In this document: positions 38,500 through 64,000 of the stretch, one piece after another
Layout: each line of letters begins with the position of its first letter
Numbering within the stretch: the first letter of the stretch is position 1
Assembly: GCA_021809545.1 (NCBI GenBank)
Contig: JAKAYL010000002.1
Coordinates: 78,411-142,410, forward strand
Direction: 5' to 3'
Source of the DNA: Thermoplasmata archaeon
Lineage (GTDB): Archaea; Thermoplasmatota; Thermoplasmata; Lutacidiplasmatales; UBA184
DNA length: 64,000 nucleotides
The notes under the pieces: model-generated
Told to the model about the DNA's origin: nothing
Seen by the model: the letters and a program-made list of their open reading frames with translations, nothing else
The model's database searches: none
Program-made: the position numbers and the translations under genes

Positions 38500-38572
38500 G
38501 GGCGCGTGGTCTAGCGGTTATGACGTCTCCCTGACACGGAGGAGGTCCCCAGTTCAAATCTGGGCGCGCCCA
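38500..38572 (+). tRNA. tRNA-Val (anticodon GAC)
   Basis: Hand-folded cloverleaf. Acceptor GGGCGCG/CGCGCCC, anticodon stem TCTCC/GGAGG with loop CTGACAC, variable loop AGGTC, T arm CCCAG-TTCAAAT-CTGGG, discriminator A. No encoded CCA. Confidence 0.9.
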
Positions 38573-47343: not shown

Positions 47344-47417
47344 GCGGCCTTAGTATAGCCTGGTTAGAACGGTAGCTTGCCAAGCTATCGGCGCGGGTTC
47401 AAATCCCGCAGGCCGCA
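47344..47417 (+). tRNA. tRNA-Gly (anticodon GCC)
   Basis: Hand-folded. Acceptor GCGGCCT/AGGCCGC, anticodon stem GTAGC/GCTAT with loop TTGCCAA, T arm GCGGG-TTCAAAT-CCCGC, discriminator A. No encoded CCA. Confidence 0.9.
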
Positions 47418-47654
47418 CTCCTCCTTGCTCCACTGCCCACTCTGGAAACCCCCCCGCTGCCGCGGGTTCCTGAATACCGTAGAATAACGAGAGGGGGACT
47501 AAATACCCCGTTCCAATCCTCGACTCGTGGAATCACAATCGAGGGAGGCCGAACTGACCGCGACCTGGCGTGTTGCTCTCAGCACAACGGTTGCTGGGGC
47601 GGCAGCAGGGTTGCCCGGTGCTCTCCCACCCCTTCGTTCGTTCCAAGGTGCTTG

Positions 47655-54652: not shown

Positions 54653-56311
54653 CTAGATGGGAAGGTTCTTTCCACGGAGGACGAGTACACCGATCGGTAT
54701 GAGCATCAGGCACGCCGTGACCGCCATCCAAGCGATCGGGGGGAGGTAGGGAAGGGAGAGGTAATTGTAGACCGCAAGCGGGGCCGCGGATACAAGCAGG
54801 CCAGGAAGCACGACCAGGGTGGTCCACCACGCCCCGCTGTAGAGGCTCGCGATGGGGACCCCGGTCCGCTTGGCCCGCTCAAGGAGGACCCCGATCTCGA
54901 GGAGGGCCGCCGCCACCACCGCCGGGAGCTCCAGGAGGGCGAAGAGCACGAAGGAAGGGAAGTTGTGGACCTTCGAGGAGACCAAGACCGCGACGACGGC
55001 GAACGCAAGGAGATAGACGATGGCGATGAGGAGGGTCTTGCTCAGGATGAGGGTGCGTTGCGATAGGGGGAGCGTCCGGGTCAGTGAGAACCCGATGATC
55101 TCGGTCGCGAAGAAGACGGGACCGAAGAAGGTGGCCAGGAGCACGGCGACGGTGACCCCGGCGAAAGCGTACCTCTCGGCAAGAACGGGAGCGGGGCTTC
55201 CCAAATAGGTGAAGAGGCCCAGAACGAACGCGTCGAGGAGGGGCAAGAGCAGCAGAAAGGCGTAGGCAGGGGTGCGCGAAGCGATCCGAAGATCCTTCTT
55301 CAGTACCGCGAGCGTCGGGCGGCTCACGACCAGGGGAGCGGAATTCATACTGCGCTCTCCCGAGACGTTGACGACACGGCTGAGCGCGATCGGAGCATCG
55401 AGGAGCCAACGCGCCGAGAGCGCCATAAGCACCAGATAAGCCCCTGCGAGAGCCAGGGGGACGAGGAAGCTGCTGAGCGGATCTCCGGACAGGGCGGCGG
55501 TGGCTGCCGAGAGGTATCCGAAGGGGAAGGGGAACAGTGCGAACACTACGTTGAGGAGGGTTGGGTCACCGTTCTCCCAACTTCCCAGGGCACTGATGAT
55601 CTGGTAGGAGAACGTGATGAAGATCGTGATCACGAGGCTAGGGATCGTCCACAGGATGAGGTAGGCCCACCGCACGGCGAGGCTCCGAAGGCTCCCCCCG
55701 CTGGCCCCGCTCACGCTCCGGGAGAAGAACTTCGCTGTGAGGAGCGAGAGGGAGAGCGCGAAGATCTCGGTGCTCACGACCCCGGGCACGACAGCGAGAC
55801 CCGCCCAGAGCGACCCGATCCCGTACCCGACGGCGATGGGGAAGAAGATCAGCGCGGTCACGAGGGGGGCATCGAAGAGGCGGAGGAAGGCGAGGAACGA
55901 GATCCATGCGGCATCCTCCTCGTCCACCGGGAGGACGAGGAGCGCCGTTGTCGCCTGGGAAGAGACGAAGGGGAGGGCAACCTGCAGCCCGGTAATCCAG
56001 ACGAGCGAGAAGAGCACGACAAGGACCAGGGAGATGATGGCCCCGTCGAAGTAGACCGGGGAAAGGGTCGTCGGGAAGTATCTCCGCCCGGTCGAGAGGG
56101 CGAAGGACGAGGCCAGGAAGGTGAGCATGAAGAGGACGGCCACGGTCATCTTCGACTGGAAGACCCTCCGTTGGGCGCGGGCGGGTCCCTCCTCCCCCCT
56201 CTTTCGCTCGCTGGCGGCGAAGACGTTCCCGCTCTTCAGGGCGTAGATCGCTTGGAAGGTGACTTCCCGGTAGAGGATGTTCGCCGCACGGAACCGCTGC
56301 TTCCAGTCCAT
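54653..56311 (-). CDS. ABC transporter permease (ABC-2-like, ~12+ TM)
   Basis: 552-aa polytopic protein beginning 3 nt after the ATPase gene. No soluble domains. Confidence 0.65.
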   Translation of the reverse strand: MDWKQRFRAANILYREVTFQAIYALKSGNVFAASERKRGEEGPARAQRRVFQSKMTVAVLFMLTFLASSFALSTGRRYFPTTLSPVYFDGAIISLVLVVLFSLVWITGLQVALPFVSSQATTALLVLPVDEEDAAWISFLAFLRLFDAPLVTALIFFPIAVGYGIGSLWAGLAVVPGVVSTEIFALSLSLLTAKFFSRSVSGASGGSLRSLAVRWAYLILWTIPSLVITIFITFSYQIISALGSWENGDPTLLNVVFALFPFPFGYLSAATAALSGDPLSSFLVPLALAGAYLVLMALSARWLLDAPIALSRVVNVSGERSMNSAPLVVSRPTLAVLKKDLRIASRTPAYAFLLLLPLLDAFVLGLFTYLGSPAPVLAERYAFAGVTVAVLLATFFGPVFFATEIIGFSLTRTLPLSQRTLILSKTLLIAIVYLLAFAVVAVLVSSKVHNFPSFVLFALLELPAVVAAALLEIGVLLERAKRTGVPIASLYSGAWWTTLVVLPGLLVSAAPLAVYNYLSLPYLPPIAWMAVTACLMLIPIGVLVLRGKNLPI

Positions 56312-56313
56312 GT

Positions 56314-57087
56314 CTAGGCGGCCTCGAGACGGCTCACGATCTTCGAGAGCTGTTCCCGGTCCGTCGTGAGCTCGAGGAAGATGTCCTCCAGCGAGGCGGA
56401 CGGGAGGCCGACCTGCTGGCGGAGTTCCGTCAGGGTACCCTCCCCCCGCAGGAGCCCGCGGTCCAGCACTCCCACCCGGTGGCAGAGCTTCTCGGCAACT
56501 TCCATCGTGTGCGTGGAAAAGAGGATGGTGCGCTTCCCGTTCTTCACGTAGGCCCCGAGGAGGTCCCGCATGATCCGCACCGAGCGGGGGTCGAGGCTGT
56601 TGAAGGGCTCGTCCAGGATGAGGAGGCGGGGCTGGTGAAGGAGGGCGCTCACCACCAGCACCTTCTGGCGCGTCCCGTTCGAGAGCGTGGAGATTGCCCG
56701 GTCCATCTCCCCGTCGATCTGGAGCGCCAGGGTGAAATCGACCAGACGGTCGTCGAAGCCGCTGAGGCCCCGGACGCTGGCGACGAACTCCAGGTACTCC
56801 CGGGGGGTGAGGGCATCGTAGAGGATGGACACCTCGGGGACGTACCCCGTCACGGACCGGGTAAAGATCCCCTCGGGGACGGGGTCCTTCCCGAAGACCC
56901 GGACCTTCCCCGACGAGGGCACGAGCAGCCCCATCACGGATTTGATGGCGGAGGTCTTGCCCGCGCCGTTGCTCCCGATGAGACCGTAGATCTCACCCTC
57001 CCGGAGCCCGAGATCAAGCTTCTCCACGGCGACGACGTCGCCATAGGTGACGCGCAAACCCTCGATCTGGAGCGGTGCTTCCGACAT
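56314..57087 (-). CDS. ABC transporter ATP-binding protein
   Basis: Walker A GSNGAGKTS, signature LSNGTRQKV, Walker B LLILDEPF, H-loop STHTM. Confidence 0.92.
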   Translation of the reverse strand: MSEAPLQIEGLRVTYGDVVAVEKLDLGLREGEIYGLIGSNGAGKTSAIKSVMGLLVPSSGKVRVFGKDPVPEGIFTRSVTGYVPEVSILYDALTPREYLEFVASVRGLSGFDDRLVDFTLALQIDGEMDRAISTLSNGTRQKVLVVSALLHQPRLLILDEPFNSLDPRSVRIMRDLLGAYVKNGKRTILFSTHTMEVAEKLCHRVGVLDRGLLRGEGTLTELRQQVGLPSASLEDIFLELTTDREQLSKIVSRLEAA

Positions 57088-57417: not shown

Positions 57418-58887
57418 CTACTTCGACCGGGTGGGAGGGAAGAGGATCACGTCCTTGATGGATTCCGCACCGAGGAGTATCATCCAGATCCGGTCGAGCC
57501 CGATCCCAAGCCCGCCGGCCGGGGGCATCCCGTACCGCAGGGCCTCCACGTACTCTGCGTCGTAGGCGAAATTCTCGTCGTCCCCCTTGGCCGCCGCCTG
57601 GGCCCGGAAGCGCTGTTCCTGGTCCTCGGGATCATTGAGCTCGCTGTAGGCGTTCGAGAGCTCCATCGAGCGGTAGTAGAGTTCGTGCCGCTCCACCCGC
57701 CCGGGCTTGGACCGGTGGGTCTTGGCGAGCGGAGTGGTCGACGCCGGATGGTCGTAGACGAACGTGGGCTCCACCAGCTTGGGCTCGACATAGTGGGCGA
57801 AGAGCTTCTCCAGGCAGGTTCCCCCGGGGGTCTCGGCCGTGATCTTGGCTCCCACCTCGCGGGCCATGGTGCGCAACCGGTCCACGGGCAGGTCGAGGAT
57901 CCCGGAGATGCCGCTCTCCTTCTCGAGCGCCTCCCCGAAATCGACCCTCGCGAAGGGAGGGGTGAAGGAGCGGACCAGCCCCTCCGTGCGCTCTCCCGGG
58001 AGAAGGTCGCGGGCCTTCCCGGCCAAGTGGTGGAGCAGGCGCTCCACCAGGGCGCGGACATCCTCGTAGTCGGCGAAGGCCCAGTAGAGCTCGAGCTCGG
58101 TGAACTCCGGGGAGTGCATGGAGTCCATGTCCTCGTTCCGGAAGACCTTGCCGATCTCAAAGACCCGTTCGTAGCCCCCGATGAGGAGCCGTTTCAGGGG
58201 AAGCTCGAGCGAGACCCGGAGGCGGAAGTCCTCGTCGAGGTAGTTGTAGTGGGCCTCGAAGGGGCGGGCGGCGGCCCCGGAGGCCACGCGGCCGAGCACT
58301 TGCGTCTCGACCTCGAGGAAGCCCTCCCGGTGAAGCACCGACCGGAGTTCCCGGGTCAGCTCCGAGCGGGCCCAGAAGGTCCGTTGCACCTGGGGCGAGG
58401 TGAAGAGGTCCACGTACCGATGCCGCATCCGGAACTCCGGGTCCTTGACCCCGTGCCATTTCTCGGGGGGAGGGGCGAGCGCTTTGGTGAGGAGATCTAG
58501 GTGCTCGACGAGGAGCGAGGGCTCCCCGGTCTTCGACCGGCTGGCCCACCCCTCGGCGCCTACGATATCCCCGCCGTCTAAGACGGAGGTGACCCGGTCG
58601 TACTCCGCTTCTCCCAGGACGTCGGCCTGAAAGTGGAGCTGGAGGTCCCCGCTCTGGTCCCGAAGGGGAGCGAAGGTGTTCTTTCCCACCTTCCGCAGGA
58701 GGAGGAGACGCCCGGCGACCCGGAACTTCCGTTCCCTGTCGACTCCCTGGGGTGCGAGCTTCCCGGCGGCTTCCCGCACTTGCGAGGAGGGGGAGCGCTC
58801 GCGGTAGGCGTAGGGGTAACGAGGATTTCCCTGCTGGGCCCAGAGCTCCAGCTTGCGCTTCCGTTGGAGGGTCAGTTCGTTGTCCAT
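57418..58887 (-). CDS. lysS: lysyl-tRNA synthetase, class II type
   Basis: N-terminal OB anticodon-binding domain (RVAGRLLLLRKVGKNTFAPLRDQSGDLQL). Class II core with ...RPFEAHYNYLDEDFRLRVSLELPLKRLLIGGYERVFEIGKVFRNEDMDSMHSPEFTELELYWAF... and the motif 3 region GLGIGLDRIWMIL. Confidence 0.9.
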   Translation of the reverse strand: MDNELTLQRKRKLELWAQQGNPRYPYAYRERSPSSQVREAAGKLAPQGVDRERKFRVAGRLLLLRKVGKNTFAPLRDQSGDLQLHFQADVLGEAEYDRVTSVLDGGDIVGAEGWASRSKTGEPSLLVEHLDLLTKALAPPPEKWHGVKDPEFRMRHRYVDLFTSPQVQRTFWARSELTRELRSVLHREGFLEVETQVLGRVASGAAARPFEAHYNYLDEDFRLRVSLELPLKRLLIGGYERVFEIGKVFRNEDMDSMHSPEFTELELYWAFADYEDVRALVERLLHHLAGKARDLLPGERTEGLVRSFTPPFARVDFGEALEKESGISGILDLPVDRLRTMAREVGAKITAETPGGTCLEKLFAHYVEPKLVEPTFVYDHPASTTPLAKTHRSKPGRVERHELYYRSMELSNAYSELNDPEDQEQRFRAQAAAKGDDENFAYDAEYVEALRYGMPPAGGLGIGLDRIWMILLGAESIKDVILFPPTRSK

Positions 58888-58951: not shown

Positions 58952-59386
58952 TCAGGCACCCACGGTGAGGTTGCCTCCCTCGCCGCCCCCGCTGCCCCCT
59001 GCTCCCATGCCCCCCCGGCGCTCGAAGTGGGGCACGAGCACGGCCAGGATGATGAAGACCACAAAGGCGAAGACGATCACGACCGCAGCGATGGAGGAGA
59101 AGATGTCCTCGGCTAGCGTGGTGTAGAGCAAGGAGGACCCGACGAAGGGGATCGGCTTCGGCCCGACGATGATGAAGACGACCCACGTCGTGGCGATCAG
59201 GAGTATGCTCGTCAGGGTCTCCGAGACGTTGTAGGGGTAGTTCTCGACCACGTGCCCGTAGCGCGCCGCCAGGTACGCCAGGATCACCATCATGGTGATC
59301 AGGAGGGACCAGAGCAGGAAGACTCCGATCCCGATGTACAGGGCGGCGAAGGCCACGAGGGCGATCATGAAGAGCGTGGTGTCCAT
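58952..59386 (-). CDS. small 4-TM membrane protein with Gly-rich tail
   Basis: 144 aa with four hydrophobic helices and tail RRGGMGAGGSGGGEGGNLTVGA. It starts 15 nt after the AAA+ gene stop. Confidence 0.6.
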   Translation of the reverse strand: MDTTLFMIALVAFAALYIGIGVFLLWSLLITMMVILAYLAARYGHVVENYPYNVSETLTSILLIATTWVVFIIVGPKPIPFVGSSLLYTTLAEDIFSSIAAVVIVFAFVVFIILAVLVPHFERRGGMGAGGSGGGEGGNLTVGA

Positions 59387-59400
59387 TGCCTACGCTCTCC

Positions 59401-62400
59401 TCACGCCCTCGTCCCGTAGCTCTGGATGAAGCTTTGCGCCCATTCCAGCGTTTCCGGGGTGATCGAGGACTTCGTCCTGCCAATAGCCTCGAGCAGGTTC
59501 GCCATCTTCACTCCGATGACCTTCTTCGCGCCGGCCGGAGCACCCTTCTCCAGGAAGTCCCGGAGCTGGGAGGTCGCGGGCGAGGAGCGGCCTTCGAACC
59601 GGTCGGCCTGGGCGGCCTCCTGCCGGAGCTGCTCTCTCAGCGCGATGAGCTTCGCCTCGTCGACGATGCTCGCGATGTCCGCGCCCGAGTACCCCTCGGT
59701 GCCGAGGGAGAGGAGGTCGACGTCGACCTCACCGTCGAGGGGGATGCCCTTCAGCTGGATCCGGAAGATGTCCGCGCGTGCCTTGAGGTCGGGTGGGGGC
59801 ACGTAGAAGATCTTGTCGAACCGGCCCGGCCGTAGGAGGGCGGGGTCCAGGATCTGCGGCCGGTTGGTCGTGGCCACGATGATGACCCGGTCCTTGGGTT
59901 TGATCCCATCCATCTCGGTCAGGAACTGACTGACGGCCCGGGAAACCTCCGGCGTCTTCATGGAGTCCTTGCTGGCCAACGCATCGATTTCATCGAAGAA
60001 GACGATGCTCGGGGAGTTCTCACGCGCCCGGTAGAGGATGTCGCGCACGGCGGCTTCGCTCTGACCGGCCAGGGCGCTCACGAGCTCAGGCCCGTTCACG
60101 ATCTGGATGGGCACGTTGAGTTCGTTCGAGGCGGCCCGCATGATGTGGGTCTTTCCGCACCCGGGCGGACCGAAGAGCAGGATGCCCCGGCCCGTCTTGA
60201 GCTTGTACTCCTCCATGAGCTCGGGCTTGGTCAGCGGGAGTTCGACGTACTCCCGGAGCGCCTTCTTGACGTCCTCCAGGCCTCCGACATCGTCCCACTT
60301 GACGACGACCTTCCGCTCGGCCCGCTGGACCTGGTGCATCTTCCGCTCGAAGTCGAGTTTCATCCGCTCGTACTCCTCGATCATCCGCAGGCTGATCGAC
60401 GGCTTGATGCGGGGCAGAATGGTCCGGAAGTCCTCCATCGCGATGAGGGAGGGGGCCCCGGTCATCATCGAGCGCTTCATGGCCATGGTGGCGGCTTCGC
60501 GCACCAGGTTCGCAAGGTCGGCGCCGGAGAACCGCTCCGTCTTCTTCGCGATCTCCGGGAGCTCGATGTCGGGCGCGACCGGCTTCCCGAAGAGGTGGAC
60601 CTTGATGACGTCCGTCCGCTCATTGAAGTCGGGCGGGGGCACGTAGATGATCTTGTCGAGCCGCCCCGGACGCATCATGGCCGGGTCGATCATCTCCGGT
60701 TTGTTCGTGGTGGCGACCACGATGACCCCGGAGGACTTGTCGAGACCGTCCATGTCCGAGAGCATGATGGACAGAAGACGAGGGGACACATCGTCAGCGC
60801 TGTAGAGGTCGCGGCGCTTGGCGAGCGCATCGACTTCATCCATGAACAGGATGCACGGCGCCCGCTCCTTGGCCGTCTTGAAGAGCTCGGCGACCTTGTT
60901 TTCGGACTCACCGTACCACTTGCTCATCAGGTCCGAGCACTTGACGGAGATCATCTCGACCCCGAGCTCGTTGGCCAGGGCCTTCATGAGCATGGTCTTC
61001 CCGCATCCGGGAGGCCCGAAGAGCAGGATCCCCTTGGGGGGCTCCAGCCCGAAGCGGCTGGTGACATCCTTCCGCATCAGCGGGATGATCATGGACTCCT
61101 TGATGTCGGCCTTGACATCGCCCAGGCCCCCGACCATTTCAAAGGTGGTCTTGGCGAGCCCCTTCATCTCGCTGACCCGCGTTCCGACCGCGGCGCCTCC
61201 GAGCTTGCTGGTGAAGTAGCCCTGGAAGTCCTCCCGGACGATCATCGAGCCCGCGGTGATGGCGAGCGTGGCGGGGATGATGAGGACGATCGTCAACGCG
61301 TAGAAGGAGAGGTCCCCGAAGGCCGAGAGGGCCGCAAGGGCACCGAGGGCGATGGCTCCGCCACCCACACCGGAGTTCATGATCCAGCGGTTCATGGTCA
61401 TCTTGGTGCGGTCGGCCACGATCTCACGGGAGAGCGAGCAGGCAATGCACCAGGTGACGATCCCCACCAGGCTCCAGATGAGGGCGCTCAGCCCCTGGCT
61501 GCCGACGGAGAGCACGGTCATGTTGGGGGCGGTCAGGTTTCCGAGGGCGGTCCCGAAGTTGAGCGGGGACCACATCCACATGGTGGGCTTCAGTGGTTCG
61601 ATGTGTCCGTTCACGAGAGTGGGAGTACCGTTGGCCGACGGCCCGACGAGCCATCCCAACAACGGGAGGTTCCCGAGAGTGACGAACAGGGACACCAGGA
61701 GTCCTCCGGCGATGGCCACCCCGATCCCGAGCAGAAGCGAGAAGACCATGGCGAGGAAGATTGGGGCCACGAACGAGAGCCCGTAGGGAGCGAGACCCAG
61801 GACGAAGAGTGCGCCCATGCCGATCCTCCAGTCAAAGAGGGAAGCCCCCAAGAGCGGGATGAGGGGGAGGAGCAGGACAAGGGCCAGTTCCGGTGACTGG
61901 TATCCCACCTCCGCCAAAAAGAGCACACCCAGCACTAAGAGCGAGAGCTGCGGATACCTGCTCGAAAGCATGGCCAACACGATCGAGAAGATCAGCACGA
62001 TCCACCAGGGGTAGAAGGGCAGGAAGACCAGGACGAGGAGCGAGAGGATGAAGAAGAGACCGATAACGAGGCCGTGGGGGTCCCTCACGGACTCCTTGAA
62101 GAACTTCTTCAGCTTGTCCGGGTACGAGTAGGAGATGAAGAGGGTCAGGCCTCCGACGATGGCGAGGAAGATCCCAAGTCCCCCGTAGAGCGGAGCAATG
62201 CCGTAGAAGCTCGGCTGCATGTAGGCCGGGTCGATAGCATAGGCCTGGGGCCCCGTGTAGCCGTTCGCGTTGGCGCTGTTCGCTGCGTTCCAGTCGGCGT
62301 CCAGCGCGACGTAGCTGGCATTGCTGCCAGGCTGGTTCCCCTGGACCACGGTGAAGGTCAGTGTGATGCTGTCCCCAGCGTGGTAGACGTTGGCGATGTT

Positions 62401-63102
62401 ACCCTGGAAGGTACCGAAGGTGTGGTTGGCGATCTGCCCGGCGGGGTTCTGGTTGGCATAGTTGATGGTGGCATACTCCACCTGGGTAACCCCGGCCGTA
62501 GAATTGTAGTAGATCCAACTGATCTGATCGTTGATGACGATGGTCTGTCCCGGTTGCACGTTCTGGGTCAGGTTGACGAAGGAGTTGGCGGGGTTTCCGC
62601 TGATCTCCGCCCCGCTCGTCCCGAGGAAGGAAGCGGCCTGCTGCGTCCCAACCACGAAGTTGTAGCCGACGACGACCACGAGCCCCGCGATGATGAGCGC
62701 AAAGCCGACGGCGAAGAAGGTCATCTCCTCCTTGGACATCCCGAACTTCTTCGGGGGAGGCCGACGGGGAGCGGGGGGACCCCCGCGGGGAGGGATGGCG
62801 AGGGGCGGGCCCCGTCCGGGAGGATAGGGAGGGCGAGGGGCTCCCGGAGCCATGGCCGGAGCCGGACCGCCGGGCCGCAGGGGAACGGGCCGGTAGCCGG
62901 GGCGGGCGCCTGGGCCGGGTCTCGGAGGAGGAACCCCTGCCGGGGCCCCACCGGGGGGACCCTGCAGAGGGTAGAATCCCCCGTACATGGAGGCATAGGG
63001 ATTGCCACCCTGTGGGGGCGGAGGCGGGTGCATGGGTCGAGGCTGCCATCCCTGCGGCGGGCGCGGTCTCTTGTTCGGATCCTGTGGTGGCTGTCCGCTC
63101 AT
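59401..63102 (-). CDS. polytopic-membrane-anchored Cdc48/VCP-type double AAA+ ATPase
   Basis: Single 1233-codon frame. aa 1-120 Pro-rich; TM FFAVGFALIIAGLVVVVGY; ~170-aa N-x-S/T-rich domain; ~11 further TM helices. Then D1 (GILLFGPPGCGKT, ILFMDEVD, TTNKPEMIDPAMMRPGRLD) and D2 (GILLFGPPGCGKT, IVFFDEID, TTNRPQILDPALLRPGRFD). Confidence 0.9.
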   Translation of the reverse strand: MSGQPPQDPNKRPRPPQGWQPRPMHPPPPPQGGNPYASMYGGFYPLQGPPGGAPAGVPPPRPGPGARPGYRPVPLRPGGPAPAMAPGAPRPPYPPGRGPPLAIPPRGGPPAPRRPPPKKFGMSKEEMTFFAVGFALIIAGLVVVVGYNFVVGTQQAASFLGTSGAEISGNPANSFVNLTQNVQPGQTIVINDQISWIYYNSTAGVTQVEYATINYANQNPAGQIANHTFGTFQGNIANVYHAGDSITLTFTVVQGNQPGSNASYVALDADWNAANSANANGYTGPQAYAIDPAYMQPSFYGIAPLYGGLGIFLAIVGGLTLFISYSYPDKLKKFFKESVRDPHGLVIGLFFILSLLVLVFLPFYPWWIVLIFSIVLAMLSSRYPQLSLLVLGVLFLAEVGYQSPELALVLLLPLIPLLGASLFDWRIGMGALFVLGLAPYGLSFVAPIFLAMVFSLLLGIGVAIAGGLLVSLFVTLGNLPLLGWLVGPSANGTPTLVNGHIEPLKPTMWMWSPLNFGTALGNLTAPNMTVLSVGSQGLSALIWSLVGIVTWCIACSLSREIVADRTKMTMNRWIMNSGVGGGAIALGALAALSAFGDLSFYALTIVLIIPATLAITAGSMIVREDFQGYFTSKLGGAAVGTRVSEMKGLAKTTFEMVGGLGDVKADIKESMIIPLMRKDVTSRFGLEPPKGILLFGPPGCGKTMLMKALANELGVEMISVKCSDLMSKWYGESENKVAELFKTAKERAPCILFMDEVDALAKRRDLYSADDVSPRLLSIMLSDMDGLDKSSGVIVVATTNKPEMIDPAMMRPGRLDKIIYVPPPDFNERTDVIKVHLFGKPVAPDIELPEIAKKTERFSGADLANLVREAATMAMKRSMMTGAPSLIAMEDFRTILPRIKPSISLRMIEEYERMKLDFERKMHQVQRAERKVVVKWDDVGGLEDVKKALREYVELPLTKPELMEEYKLKTGRGILLFGPPGCGKTHIMRAASNELNVPIQIVNGPELVSALAGQSEAAVRDILYRARENSPSIVFFDEIDALASKDSMKTPEVSRAVSQFLTEMDGIKPKDRVIIVATTNRPQILDPALLRPGRFDKIFYVPPPDLKARADIFRIQLKGIPLDGEVDVDLLSLGTEGYSGADIASIVDEAKLIALREQLRQEAAQADRFEGRSSPATSQLRDFLEKGAPAGAKKVIGVKMANLLEAIGRTKSSITPETLEWAQSFIQSYGTRA

Positions 63103-63148: not shown

Positions 63149-64000
63149 TCATAGGGTCACCCGCTTCTCCTCAGCTTCGGCCTTTCGGCGGATCTCCTGC
63201 CAGAGCAGGTAGATCGGTCCCACAATGGCCGTGGCCAGAATCATCCCCACGATCACGGCCGGAGGGAAGGGGAAGACACTCTGGGAATAGACCGGCGGCA
63301 CCGTGTGATGGCTGTTGAAGTAGAAGGTGAGGGTCTTGTTGGACGTGGCCGTCAACTGATACTGTACGAATTGCGTCTGGCCGTCCCAAACGACCGTCAC
63401 GTTGTAGGTCTGATTGAGGCGCAGATAGACGGGGAAGTTGGACGCAGAAGCGTTAGGATAAGCGAATCCGAGGGCGTTGGTCGAGGTGTTGTCGACCCAC
63501 GTGTGATTGGCGAACTGGACGCGGGCGCCCGAGACATAGGAATGCGTCCCCAGGTCATAGGCCACGACATAGAAGTACGTCCGCCCGTTGACGATGGCGG
63601 GCGGCGCGGGGGACGTGTGGAACGTGTACTGCCTCGAGGTGATGGAACAGCGCAGGTTGTCGAACGCCTCGACCCAGAAGGTGATCGTAGAGCCCGGCTG
63701 GAACGGGCCGAAGGGAGGATGGGTGATCGAGTTGAAATTGTCGCCGGTGTACTGCGTGGTGGCGTTCGCCCGGTACATCGGCATCGTGCTCACGCTGCCC
63801 CCGTTGGACTGACCCTTGACGACCTCGCGGAAGTGCAGGTAGGCATAGGCGATGGTCGTGTTCGCAAAGTTGCTCTCGACGGAAACGTTCACCGGCTGGC
63901 CCGCGGGGACGACCGAATTGTTCTGGGCCGTGATGTTGGAGTAGGGGGCCGTGGACAAGCTCAGGAAGTGGTAGAAGGTGTAGTTCGTATTGCACCAGGT
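63149..64000 (-). CDS. secreted beta-rich protein rich in N-x-S/T sequons, with C-terminal TM anchor (N-terminus beyond window)
   Basis: The frame is open to the window edge; the track's 63958 'start' is an internal TTG and no stop lies upstream. Many N-x-S/T sequons, TM VIVGMILATAIVGPIYLLW, and tail EIRRKAEAEEKRVTL. Confidence 0.65.
   Translation of the reverse strand, partial: TWCNTNYTFYHFLSLSTAPYSNITAQNNSVVPAGQPVNVSVESNFANTTIAYAYLHFREVVKGQSNGGSVSTMPMYRANATTQYTGDNFNSITHPPFGPFQPGSTITFWVEAFDNLRCSITSRQYTFHTSPAPPAIVNGRTYFYVVAYDLGTHSYVSGARVQFANHTWVDNTSTNALGFAYPNASASNFPVYLRLNQTYNVTVVWDGQTQFVQYQLTATSNKTLTFYFNSHHTVPPVYSQSVFPFPPAVIVGMILATAIVGPIYLLWQEIRRKAEAEEKRVTL

What the first reader, a model, noticed from the sequence alone, without database searches (positions are those of the whole stretch)
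59401..63102. Cdc48/VCP-type double AAA+ ATPase fused to a ~680-aa polytopic membrane and extracytoplasmic module instead of the canonical N domain
One uninterrupted 1233-codon frame encodes, in order:
- a ~120-aa Pro-rich segment (PPPPPQGG..., RPPYPPGRGPP)
- a TM helix
- a ~170-aa segment with several N-x-S/T sequons (NLT, NST, NHT, NAS) that should face outward
- about 11 more hydrophobic helices, with a second sequon-bearing loop (NGT, NLT, NMT)
- two complete Cdc48-clade AAA+ modules, both with GPPGCGKT Walker A, DEVD/DEID Walker B and SRH.

Archaeal Cdc48/VAT proteins as I know them are soluble and use a double-psi-barrel N domain for substrate recognition. Here that domain is absent. A type II AAA+ unfoldase welded to a large membrane domain suggests a dedicated membrane-protein extraction, quality-control or polypeptide translocation machine. 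The membrane part (about 61150-62730) matches no family I recognise.
Basis: partly seen in the sequence, partly recalled or inferred. Interest (0 to 1): 0.75.

Follow-up and report, generated by a model that had tools for sequence, protein, structure and literature searches.

The report
Membrane-embedded Cdc48-like ATPase with surface partners
A soil archaeon (Thermoplasmata) encodes a Cdc48/VAT-type protein-pulling motor fused to a previously undescribed ten-helix membrane domain, always next to genes for two surface glycoproteins and a small membrane protein, which points to an uncharacterised ATP-driven cell-envelope machine.

Summary
Window 59401..63102 (minus strand) is one 1233-codon gene. 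It encodes a Pro-rich cytoplasmic head, TM1, a 150-aa sequon-bearing ectodomain, TM2, a roughly 300-aa polytopic domain and two classical AAA modules closest to Thermoplasma VAT. The fusion is not an artefact. The identical protein lies on 22 contigs from independent assemblies, and at least 17 other genomes carry the same architecture.

The membrane domain has no Pfam or NCBIfam match. A confident AlphaFold model has no fold match in PDB or BFVD. The family is rare: 35 clusters among 1.84 billion representatives. Every labelled genome but one (titled only 'bacterium') is Thermoplasmata or 'Methanobacteriota'.

New findings:
- The gene sits in a conserved cassette of two paralogous Ig-like single-pass glycoproteins, the membrane-AAA gene and a small membrane protein.
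- In other family members the glycoprotein ectodomain is fused to the ATPase's N-terminus.
- D1, next to the membrane, is the invariant motor (pore loop SKWYGESE). D2 is often degenerate or lost.

Best reading, inferred rather than shown: a hexameric, FtsH/Msp1/ERAD-like motor that pulls membrane-anchored envelope proteins towards the cytoplasm, with the glycoproteins as fixed outer subunits. I rate it a new variant of a known kind, interest about 0.65.

The parts
59401..63102 (-). Whole gene: 1233-aa membrane-embedded tandem AAA ATPase (stop codon at 59401-59403)
   Evidence: ORF. (exact protein on 22 contigs). (dN/dS 0.33 overall against the orthologue in L035).
62740..63102 (-). Pro-rich N-terminal segment, aa 1-121, inferred cytoplasmic
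   Evidence: 45 Pro in the first 125 aa. Conserved in P0004. dN/dS 0.18. Some gene calls in near-identical genomes start at M122, but conservation supports the long form.
62653..62724 (-). TM1, aa 127-150
   Evidence: Hydropathy peak of 2.73.
62209..62652 (-). Extracytoplasmic segment, aa 151-298, with four N-x-S/T sequons; fast evolving
   Evidence: Sequons at aa 177, 200, 226 and 261. dN/dS 0.79 for aa 122-330. Present only in the closest subfamily (P0001, P0003, P0004).
62128..62208 (-). TM2, aa 299-325, followed by a K-rich inside loop
   Evidence: Hydropathy. The loop SYPDKLKKFFKESVRDPHG fits the positive-inside rule (read directly from the sequence).
61195..62100 (-). Conserved polytopic membrane domain, aa 335-636. 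About 10 helices. Motifs PFYPWW, RYP, (A/G)YQ, DW(R/K)(F/I)G, VT.GN and WC. Outside loop at aa 477-535 with three sequons.
   Evidence: Profile search: 35 clusters. Alignments A2 and A6. AF2 model with pLDDT 82.4 and pTM 0.79. No fold match in PDB or BFVD. No Pfam or NCBIfam family.
60286..61152 (-). AAA module D1, aa 651-939: the membrane-proximal, invariant motor
   Evidence: PF00004 and AAA_lid_3. Motifs including pore loop SKWYGESE. S(K/R)WYGESE in 22/22 family members. 92% aa identity and dN/dS 0.10 against L035. Scores best against VAT D2, 251 bits.
59404..60285 (-). AAA module D2, aa 940-1233: catalytic motifs intact here, non-aromatic pore loop SALAGQSE, no HbYX at the C-terminus (...SYGTRA)
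   Evidence: Canonical Walker A plus B in only 4/22 family members, and D2 is absent in about 9.
63149..64000 (-). 3' part of the upstream partner gene (630 aa in full; it runs off the window). It encodes a glycosylated tandem beta-sandwich ectodomain, a C-terminal TM helix and the conserved cytoplasmic tail ...KAEAEEKRVTL.
   Evidence: gene. (homologous to the N-terminal ectodomains fused in P0009 and 11 others). (conserved order in 16 loci). (tail conservation). (Ig/FN3/pilin-like fold).
58952..59386 (-). Downstream 144-aa small polytopic membrane protein, starting 14 nt after the ATPase stop
   Evidence: A small hydrophobic protein follows the ATPase gene in most loci that have downstream DNA. 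Alignment A5. A profile of the distant members scores it at 20.0 bits against at most 5.0 bits for 500 shuffles. dN/dS 0.57.

Best explanation
The gene encodes the motor subunit of a conserved cell-envelope module restricted to Thermoplasmata.

Shown:
- A VAT/Cdc48-derived tandem AAA ATPase is covalently joined by a linker of about 30 residues to a novel membrane domain of about 10 helices.
- It is co-encoded, in fixed order, with two paralogous single-pass Ig-like surface glycoproteins and a small membrane protein.
- In other family members the glycoprotein ectodomain is fused to the ATPase itself.

Inferred:
- Like every classical AAA protein, it forms a hexamer. The D1 ring then lies directly under a ring of six membrane domains, with its aromatic pore loops (SKWYGESE) facing the bilayer.
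- ATP hydrolysis in D1 grips cytoplasmic tails or TM segments of single-pass envelope proteins and pulls them out of the membrane towards the cytoplasm, as FtsH, Msp1 and the Cdc48-Hrd1 ERAD system do.
- The membrane domain serves as anchor and conduit.
- The two glycoproteins are fixed extracellular scaffold or receptor subunits.
- Released polypeptide would be degraded by cytoplasmic proteases, since the protein has no protease domain and no HbYX proteasome-docking motif.
For: - Architecture and authenticity.
- AAA modules closest to T. acidophilum VAT, with all catalytic motifs.
- D1 pore loop and Walker A invariant in 22/22 family members, while D2 is degenerate or absent in most. The ring next to the membrane is therefore the conserved engine.
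- The linker between the last TM helix (about aa 622) and the AAA fold (about aa 651) is short and conserved: YF..K.G...VGTR..EM.
- The cassette order ecto-747, ecto-630, ATPase is conserved on one strand in all 16 loci with enough upstream DNA.
- The ectodomain is fused N-terminally in 12 long family members. This is a Rosetta-stone argument for a stable complex.
- Ecto partners are Ig/FN3/pilin-like beta-sandwiches on a long TM-plus-cytoplasmic helix.
- The cytoplasmic tails of both paralogues are near-invariant across 15 genomes, ending R(I/V)(T/S)L-COOH.
- The membrane domain has only aromatic, Pro, Gly and one Gln invariant. That fits a scaffold or conduit, not an enzyme active site.
- The same membrane domain is fused to a different hexameric ATPase (KaiC-like) in a Cdv-encoding archaeon. 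It behaves as a portable membrane platform for ring ATPases.
Against: - No experiment, transcript or structure of the complex exists.
- Hexamerisation and the direction of translocation are assumed from family knowledge.
- The fused forms show that the ectodomain is a subunit, but they do not say what the client is.
- The family's rarity and narrow taxonomic range argue against a general housekeeping quality-control role.
- Several members have Walker B DD instead of DE in D1, so hydrolysis rates may be unusual.
- Pulling heavily N-glycosylated ectodomains through a membrane is physically implausible unless the membrane ring forms a wide conduit, which I could not test.
- The monomer model says nothing about a pore.
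Confidence: 0.45

Rival explanations
1. The two co-encoded glycoproteins are the clients, not subunits. The D1 ring recognises their conserved free C-terminal tail (...KAEAEEKR(V/I)TL-COOH) as a degron-like handle. It then removes or recycles them from the membrane, giving regulated turnover of a fast-evolving surface coat.
For: - The tails of both paralogues are conserved over 15 genomes while the ectodomains diverge fast: dN/dS 0.63-0.69 against 0.10 for D1.
- At about 17 residues, the tail could reach a pore under the membrane.
- From knowledge of ClpX and FtsH: AAA unfoldases often start from short non-polar C-termini such as the ssrA tag.
Against: - In 12 family members the homologous ectodomain is fused upstream of the membrane domain and has no free C-terminus. 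That is hard to reconcile with being a substrate.
- The P0002-type subfamily's ecto partner ends in ...ARRRRRSGR, not RVTL, so the tail motif is specific to one lineage.
- A 600-aa glycosylated ectodomain is a poor candidate for threading.
Confidence: 0.2
2. It is an outward-acting machine. The ATPase energises export of polypeptides, or assembly and anchoring of a surface structure, through the membrane-domain ring. It would work like the ATPase, platform and outer-subunit logic of type VII secretion (EccC/EccD/EccB) or type IV filament systems, or like Bcs1.
For: - The layout resembles those systems: a ring ATPase, a polytopic membrane platform and single-pass proteins with large ectodomains.
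- The neighbourhood is rich in large secreted, anchored proteins: a PKD/InlB-repeat protein of about 1250 aa downstream in 11 loci, a giant Big/LTD protein in L032 and vWA proteins in L031 and L032.
- The ecto partners' fold resembles Gram-positive pilins and adhesins.
- The membrane domain also pairs with KaiC-like ATPases, a class that takes part in the archaellum motor (from memory: ArlH).
Against: - From established knowledge: classical AAA tandem unfoldases thread from the N-terminal (D1) face to D2, which here means away from the membrane.
- The only conserved aromatic pore loop is in the membrane-proximal ring, and the distal ring is often lost. That is the opposite of what a pusher needs.
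- No signal-less candidate cargo gene is conserved in the cassette.
- The Foldseek similarity to ESX EccD is insignificant (6sgx_C, E=2.1, TM 0.16).
Confidence: 0.15
3. It is a polypeptide-import device for a protein-scavenging archaeon. The extracellular Ig-like or vWA crown captures detrital protein, and the motor reels unfolded chains into the cell.
For: - The motor orientation suits inward pulling.
- The extracellular partners are binding-type modules.
- The window's genome carries a large secreted sedolisin-like peptidase next to the cassette.
Against: - It is entirely speculative and has no precedent.
- The peptidase neighbour is not conserved in other loci.
- No conserved polar lining is evident in the membrane domain.
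Confidence: 0.07
4. It is an assembly or annotation artefact: a membrane protein gene and an ordinary Cdc48 gene joined by a missed stop or frameshift.
For: One relative (L005, P0001) is split into a 676-aa and a 350-aa ORF.
Against: - The identical 1233-aa product is on 22 contigs from separate assemblies.
- Collinear full-length matches occur in more than 17 genomes.
- Purifying selection runs across the junction.
- The split in L005 lies inside the AAA part, not at the membrane/AAA junction, and that sequence shows local garbling typical of long-read errors.
Confidence: 0.01
5. It is an anti-phage defence ATPase of the IetA/IteA type.
For: PADLOC IetA models hit at E=7e-72, and NCBIfam IteA_antiphage scores 222 bits.
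Against: - The hits cover only the generic AAA modules and fall far below the NCBIfam cut-off (222 against 510).
- No IetS-like protease partner is conserved.
- Nothing was found in IMG/VR.
- The cassette lies in conserved chromosomal synteny with LysRS in two genera.
Confidence: 0.02

Closest known systems
VAT / Cdc48 / p97 (type II classical AAA unfoldases; T. acidophilum VAT, PDB 5g4g, 5vc7)
   Same: Two tandem classical AAA modules with Walker A and B, sensor-1, SRH arginine fingers and AAA_lid_3. VAT is the best PDB sequence match (E=5e-182). The origin is probably a Thermoplasmata VAT paralogue.
   Different: - There is no double-psi-barrel/beta-clam N domain. A Pro-rich head, two TM helices, an ectodomain and a novel 10-helix membrane domain take its place.
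- The score is below the TIGR01243 cut-off (537 against 802.65).
- There is no C-terminal HbYX motif.
- The first module resembles VAT D2 more than VAT D1.
- D2 has a non-aromatic pore loop and is dispensable in much of the family, whereas D2 is the main motor in p97.
FtsH and the mitochondrial m-/i-AAA proteases
   Same: A classical AAA ring is tethered by N-terminal TM helices that flank an extracytoplasmic domain. The pore entrance faces the membrane across a short linker. These enzymes extract membrane proteins. This is the closest model for how it works.
   Different: FtsH has one AAA ring plus a C-terminal M41 zinc protease and only 1-2 TM helices. Here there is no protease domain, there are two rings and about 12 TM helices, and the TIGR01241 score is below cut-off (451 against 600).
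Hrd1/Derlin-Cdc48 retrotranslocation (ERAD), with Hrd3 as luminal receptor
   Same: The combination of parts: a single-pass glycoprotein with a large exoplasmic domain, a polytopic membrane component and a Cdc48-type motor on the cytoplasmic side.
   Different: - In ERAD these are separate proteins, and ubiquitin adaptors recruit them.
- Here the motor and the polytopic part are one polypeptide.
- I detected no similarity of the membrane domain to Hrd1 or to Derlin/rhomboid (the Foldseek PDB search gave nothing significant).
- This cassette contains no ubiquitin-like system.
MBA, the 'membrane-bound AAA' proteins of Sulfolobus (Serek-Heuberger et al. 2009, cited in PMC3493965)
   Same: Archaeal classical AAA proteins anchored in the membrane.
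   Different: In cluster analysis MBA forms its own AAA cluster, separate from CDC48 (PMC3493965). From memory it has a single AAA ring and few TM helices and is crenarchaeal.
Msp1/ATAD1 and Bcs1 (N-terminally anchored AAA proteins)
   Same: Membrane-anchored AAA rings that move proteins out of or across a membrane.
   Different: They have a single TM helix, a single ring and no extracytoplasmic partners. Bcs1 is a heptamer that moves folded cargo by a mechanism without threading.
ESX/type VII secretion core (EccC ATPase, EccD polytopic, EccB single-pass ectodomain)
   Same: The overall layout: a ring ATPase, a polytopic platform and a single-pass subunit with a large ectodomain.
   Different: EccC is an FtsK/SpoIIIE ATPase, not a classical AAA. 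There is no sequence or fold similarity (6sgx_C, E=2.1).

Membership tests
Cdc48/VAT/p97 (NCBIfam TIGR01243 'CDC48 family AAA ATPase') | Two tandem classical AAA modules with intact Walker A/B, sensor-1 and SRH arginines | tested here: met
   Best PDB hit is VAT at E=5e-182.
Cdc48/VAT/p97 (NCBIfam TIGR01243 'CDC48 family AAA ATPase') | N-terminal substrate/adaptor-binding N domain (double-psi barrel plus beta-clam; Pfam CDC48_N / CDC48_2) | tested here: not met
   Aa 1-690 match no Pfam family at E<=1. The region is Pro-rich and membrane-spanning.
Cdc48/VAT/p97 (NCBIfam TIGR01243 'CDC48 family AAA ATPase') | Whole-protein score above the curated family cut-off | tested here: not met
   537.2 bits against a cut-off of 802.65.
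Cdc48/VAT/p97 (NCBIfam TIGR01243 'CDC48 family AAA ATPase') | C-terminal HbYX motif for 20S proteasome docking (present in at least one Cdc48 of PAN-less archaea; PMC3493965) | tested here: not met
   The C-terminus is ...FIQSYGTRA. No family member has a penultimate Tyr.
FtsH (NCBIfam TIGR01241) | Single AAA module followed by an M41 zinc metalloprotease | tested here: not met
   No peptidase family is among the hits shown. 451.6 bits against a cut-off of 600. There are two AAA modules.
FtsH (NCBIfam TIGR01241) | N-terminal TM helices flanking an extracytoplasmic domain, with the AAA ring close to the membrane | tested here: met
   TM1, ecto segment and TM2, plus a linker of about 30 residues before D1. 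This is analogy only; no sequence similarity was found in that region.
MBA (membrane-bound AAA of Sulfolobus) | Membership of the MBA sequence cluster, which is distinct from CDC48 | not testable with these tools
   No MBA sequence or paper was available. The AAA modules here score as Cdc48/VAT, which argues against membership.
IetA/IteA anti-phage ATPase | Score above the NCBIfam NF042959 cut-off and an adjacent IetS protease | tested here: not met
   222.5 bits against a cut-off of 510. PADLOC hits cover only the AAA modules. No conserved protease neighbour.
MoxR-vWA systems | AAA+ ATPase of the MoxR clade paired with a vWA protein | tested here: not met
   vWA proteins do precede the fused-type family members. 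The ATPase is a classical AAA (PF00004, Cdc48-like), no MoxR-family model is among the hits shown, and no vWA gene is recognisable in the window's cassette.
New family proposed here (membrane domain with PFYPWW / RYP / YQ / DW(R/K)FG motifs, plus ring ATPase) | Homologous membrane domain directly upstream of AAA D1 with pore loop S(K/R)WYGESE, and co-encoded Ig-like single-pass glycoprotein(s) | tested here: met

The most novel reading that the evidence does not exclude
This would be a one-polypeptide archaeal retrotranslocon: a Cdc48/VAT motor covalently joined to its own membrane conduit and crowned by Ig-like (in relatives, vWA) receptor subunits. It would recognise aberrant or unwanted extracytoplasmic and surface proteins and pull them back across the cytoplasmic membrane for degradation. 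That would be a prokaryotic, ubiquitin-independent counterpart of ERAD, built on a membrane fold not seen in any solved structure.
Probability: 0.2. Interest if true: 0.85.

Novelty: new variant of a known kind. Interest (0 to 1): 0.65.

Why it matters
Archaea lack FtsH. How they remove or remodel membrane and surface proteins is poorly understood, and Cdc48/VAT is known there only as a soluble proteasome partner.

A VAT-derived motor permanently built into the membrane would be a new solution to moving protein out of, or across, a membrane. It comes with its own uncharacterised membrane domain and dedicated extracellular subunits. It would also be a compact system for studying how an AAA ring couples to a membrane conduit, a question still debated for ERAD.

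The membrane domain pairs with unrelated ring ATPases (AAA, KaiC-like). This suggests a general 'platform' module that has gone unnoticed. The family is small, has clear motifs and is easy to define, so it could be registered as a new domain family and targeted for structure determination.

Tried and rejected
- The search for homologous proteins with the ecto-partner fragment and with the eight-sequence membrane-domain alignment A6 both returned nothing, not even the queries' own proteins. The word index is probably swamped by hydrophobic or low-complexity words, so two of the three searches were lost.
- The search for related loci with the 21-sequence alignment A2 failed because no stretch was conserved enough. 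A1 worked.
I modelled only the 283-aa part inside the window, aligned with the fused ectodomains.
- Foldseek of the membrane-domain model against PDB and BFVD gave only noise (best E=0.48 and 0.89, TM<=0.26). The GPCR, ABC and EccD rows are chance helical-bundle matches. No AlphaFold DB library was available.
- The MBA paper (BST 37:118) is not held.
- Literature searches for a membrane-fused Cdc48 in archaea found nothing relevant.
- My greedy ORF caller picked spurious Arg/Ser/Pro-rich ORFs between the ATPase and the next gene in high-GC loci. I corrected this by choosing the most hydrophobic frame.
- Downstream LysRS, ABC ATPase and 12TM_1 as part of the module: rejected. They are syntenic only in the sister genus and absent in other loci.
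- Sedolisin-like peptidase neighbour as a partner: rejected, because it is not conserved.
- Defence-system (IetA) and viral origin: rejected.
- There are no tandem repeats in the region, and the only RNA features in the window are two tRNA genes well outside it.

Full report
**1. The observation**

Window 59401..63102 holds one uninterrupted 1233-codon ORF on the minus strand.
- The first 125 residues contain 45 prolines.
- A strong hydrophobic helix lies at aa 127-150.
- A 150-residue segment carries sequons at aa 177, 200, 226 and 261.
- A second helix lies at aa 300-325. About ten more hydrophobic helices follow, up to aa 622, with a sequon-bearing loop (aa 491, 522, 527).
- Two complete classical AAA modules follow (PF00004 plus AAA_lid_3).
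- Their motifs: Walker A GPPGCGKT at 696 and 978; Walker B ILFMDEVD and IVFFDEID; sensor-1 TTN(K/R)P; SRH arginines RPGR(L/F)D.

Aa 1-690 match no Pfam family even at E<=1. In NCBIfam only the first residues of the AAA fold score. The Cdc48 N domain is therefore absent.

**2. The fusion is real**

The identical protein is called on 22 contigs from independent assemblies: two NCBI MAGs (GCA_027382145.1 on a 596-kb contig, and GCA_027382135.1) and ENA ERZ27237009.

A sister genus (L035, 69% aa identity) has the same gene in the same synteny. Codon-level comparison shows purifying selection in every segment:

| Segment | dN/dS |
|---|---|
| Pro-rich head | 0.18 |
| TM1 plus ecto segment | 0.79 |
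| Membrane domain | 0.49 |
| D1 | 0.10 (92% aa identity) |
| D2 | 0.15 |

The Pro-rich head also aligns in frame with P0004. Some gene calls in near-identical genomes start at M122, but the long form is supported.

**3. The family**

A profile of the membrane domain alone (A1) was searched against 1.84 billion representatives. It found only 35 clusters, 24 of them at E<=1e-30. Almost all full-length hits are the membrane domain followed directly by AAA modules.

A scan of one genome per species found 25 loci. All but one are labelled Thermoplasmata or 'Methanobacteriota'; the exception is titled only 'bacterium'. Most come from soil MAGs, including Candidatus Lutacidiplasma silvani. Nothing was found in IMG/VR.

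Public names are generic: 'AAA family ATPase', 'SpoVK/Ycf46/Vps4 family'. I found no paper describing the architecture. The only archaeal 'membrane-bound AAA' in the literature I could reach is the Sulfolobus MBA group, which forms a cluster separate from CDC48 (PMC3493965).

**4. The membrane domain**

Conserved motifs are PFYPWW, RYP, (A/G)YQ, DW(R/K)(F/I)G, VT.GN and WC. Across 21 sequences only P, F, Q, W, G, P and W are invariant. There is no acid, His or Ser constellation that would suggest an enzyme.

AlphaFold with the 21-sequence alignment gives a confident model (pLDDT 82.4, pTM 0.79). It has 10-11 helices and one long loop with a beta-hairpin. Foldseek finds nothing significant in PDB (best E=0.48, TM<=0.2) or BFVD (best E=0.89).

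The topology is inferred from the positive-inside rule:
- The K/R-rich loops at aa 326-342, near 381, near 426 and at 558-573, and the segment after aa 622, are cytoplasmic.
- That places PFYPWW, the YQ motif and the sequon loop at aa 477-535 outside.
- It gives an even number of spans with both ends inside. This matches the fused relatives, in which an outside ectodomain and one TM helix precede the domain.

Distant homologues carry the same domain fused to other modules:
- a KaiC-like ATPase (P0033, PF06745 E=6e-35), in a Cdv-encoding MAG next to a second KaiC-like gene;
- a coiled coil with a possible C-terminal HTH, for which Pfam gives only weak sub-threshold matches (P0035 scanned; P0036 has the same layout by eye);
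- a single AAA module (P0037).

The domain therefore behaves as a portable membrane platform, mostly for ring ATPases.

**5. The ATPase**

The best PDB sequence match is T. acidophilum VAT (5g4g, E=5e-182), ahead of eukaryotic p97/Cdc48 (about 1e-120). The first module scores higher against VAT D2 (251 bits) than against VAT D1 (185 bits). The second scores about equally against Cdc48 D1 and D2.

The membrane-proximal module D1 carries the aromatic pore loop SKWYGESE. D2 has SALAGQSE, like p97 D1.

Across 22 family members:
- The D1 pore loop, S(K/R)WYGESE, and Walker A are invariant.
- D2 keeps canonical Walker A plus B in only four members (the window, P0004, P0005, P0010).
- D2 never has an aromatic pore loop.
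- D2 is missing in about nine members, where charged tails replace it.

No member ends in HbYX. The last TM helix and the AAA fold are about 30 residues apart, joined by a conserved linker (YF..K.G...VGTR..EM). The conserved engine is therefore the ring that must sit right under the membrane.

**6. The neighbourhood (the main new result)**

The gene directly upstream runs off the window end (63149..>64000; 630 aa in L001). The gene before it is 747 aa. They are paralogues. Each has a signal peptide, a heavily sequon-rich beta-rich ectodomain, one C-terminal TM helix and a short charged tail.

The order 747-like, 630-like, ATPase, all on one strand, is kept in all 16 loci with enough upstream DNA.

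The same ectodomain is fused to the N-terminus of the ATPase in 12 long family members (P0009, P0012-14, P0017, P0019, P0020, P0022, P0024, P0026, P0027, P0032), and also in the truncated hit P0023. There it is followed by one TM helix and a K/E-rich linker into the membrane domain (BLASTP E from about 1e-4 to 1e-28). Such fusion and fission is the classic sign of a stable complex.

A model of the part encoded in the window (pLDDT 74.7) shows tandem beta-sandwiches on a long TM-plus-cytoplasmic helix. Foldseek's best matches are adhesin, pilin and FN3/Ig proteins: UafA, BcpA and RbmA, at E=2.5e-6 to 1e-4.

The cytoplasmic tails of both paralogues are nearly invariant over 15 genomes...W(F/W).ERR.KAE.EQ.R(I/V)(T/S)L-COOH. 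The ectodomains, in contrast, evolve fast (dN/dS 0.63-0.69).

In the fused-type loci the gene overlapping the ATPase start encodes a vWA protein (PF00092, E=3.8e-14). It has the same layout of signal peptide, ectodomain, Pro-rich stalk, TM helix and basic tail.

A small polytopic membrane protein follows the ATPase in most loci that have downstream DNA. The window's 144-aa ORF (58952..59386, 14 nt after the stop) belongs to the type found with distant members. A profile of those scores it at 20.0 bits against at most 5.0 bits for 500 shuffles.

LysRS, the ABC ATPase and 12TM_1 further downstream are syntenic only in the sister genus. They are not part of the module.

**7. How it most likely works**

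Shown: a VAT-type motor is covalently tied to a novel membrane domain, and is encoded with, or fused to, Ig-like single-pass surface glycoproteins and a small membrane protein.

Inferred from what is established for classical AAA proteins (FtsH, Msp1, Cdc48, VAT):
- It forms a hexamer.
- The D1 entrance faces the membrane.
- Pore-loop aromatics grip a polypeptide and move it from D1 towards D2, that is, from the membrane into the cytoplasm.

I therefore favour a dislocase that pulls single-pass envelope proteins out of the membrane. The membrane ring would be anchor and conduit, and the glycoproteins fixed outer subunits. My confidence is about 0.45.

The rivals:
- The glycoproteins are themselves the clients, engaged through their RVTL tail (0.2). 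Their fusion to the ATPase in relatives weakens this.
- It is an outward-acting secretion or assembly machine (0.15). Motor polarity and the loss of the distal ring weaken this.
- It imports polypeptide (0.07).
- It is an artefact (0.01) or a defence system (0.02).

**8. Comparison with known systems and novelty**

It works most like FtsH/Msp1 and the Hrd1-Cdc48 system. It is not a member of the Cdc48 family as curated: it has no N domain, scores 537 against a cut-off of 802, and has no HbYX. It is not FtsH (no protease domain, 451 against 600) and not IetA (222 against 510).

The AAA part is ordinary. New are the membrane domain, its coupling to ring ATPases, and the conserved cassette with extracellular partners. 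I rate it a new variant of a known kind, with interest 0.65.

The boldest reading not excluded is a one-polypeptide, ubiquitin-independent archaeal retrotranslocon (probability about 0.2).

Noticed in passing
window 57418..58887 (-): This is a class II-type lysyl-tRNA synthetase (tRNA_anti-codon plus tRNA-synt_2), directly downstream of the cassette and syntenic in the sister genus. From memory, most archaea use a class I LysRS, so a class II enzyme in a Thermoplasmata-like genome may be worth a look.
   Followed up: no
window 54653..57087 (-): An ABC ATPase (257 aa) and a 552-aa '12TM_1' (PF09847) membrane protein form an adjacent pair, also kept in the sister genus L035. It is probably an exporter of unknown substrate.
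   Followed up: no
L001:1551-5627 (-), just outside the window beyond 64000: A 1358-aa secreted protein with a Pro-kumamolisin activation domain and several CarboxypepD_reg repeats (sedolisin-like peptidase) is divergently oriented from the cassette. It is not conserved next to the cassette in other genomes.
   Followed up: partly
L010:11343-15179 and 10 other loci (cluster c1): In 11 related Thermoplasmata loci, including Ca. Lutacidiplasma silvani, a secreted protein of about 1250 aa follows the ATPase and the small gene. It has InlB B-repeat and PKD domains and is anchored by a C-terminal TM helix. It is absent from the window's genome at this position.
   Followed up: partly
L010:10938-11312 and similar positions in L005-L026: In those same related loci the small downstream protein is of a different type from the window's. 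It has two TM helices and a conserved C-terminal (S/P)SFE(V/I)Y motif. Its relation to the ATPase is unknown.
   Followed up: partly
L033:7203-9674: In a Cdv-encoding (TACK-type) MAG the same membrane domain is fused to a KaiC-like ATPase. A second, stand-alone KaiC-like gene precedes it, and the pair lies a few kb from CdvA and Vps4.
   Followed up: partly
family members P0002, P0007, P0011, P0015, P0031: D1 Walker B reads DD instead of DE (for example IIFFDDID) in one subfamily. The catalytic glutamate is thus replaced by aspartate, although the pore loop stays invariant. The effect on ATP hydrolysis is unknown.
   Followed up: no
window 38500..38572 and 47344..47418 (+): tRNA-Val(GAC) and tRNA-Gly(GCC) are the only RNA genes that Rfam and ARAGORN found in the window.
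   Followed up: yes
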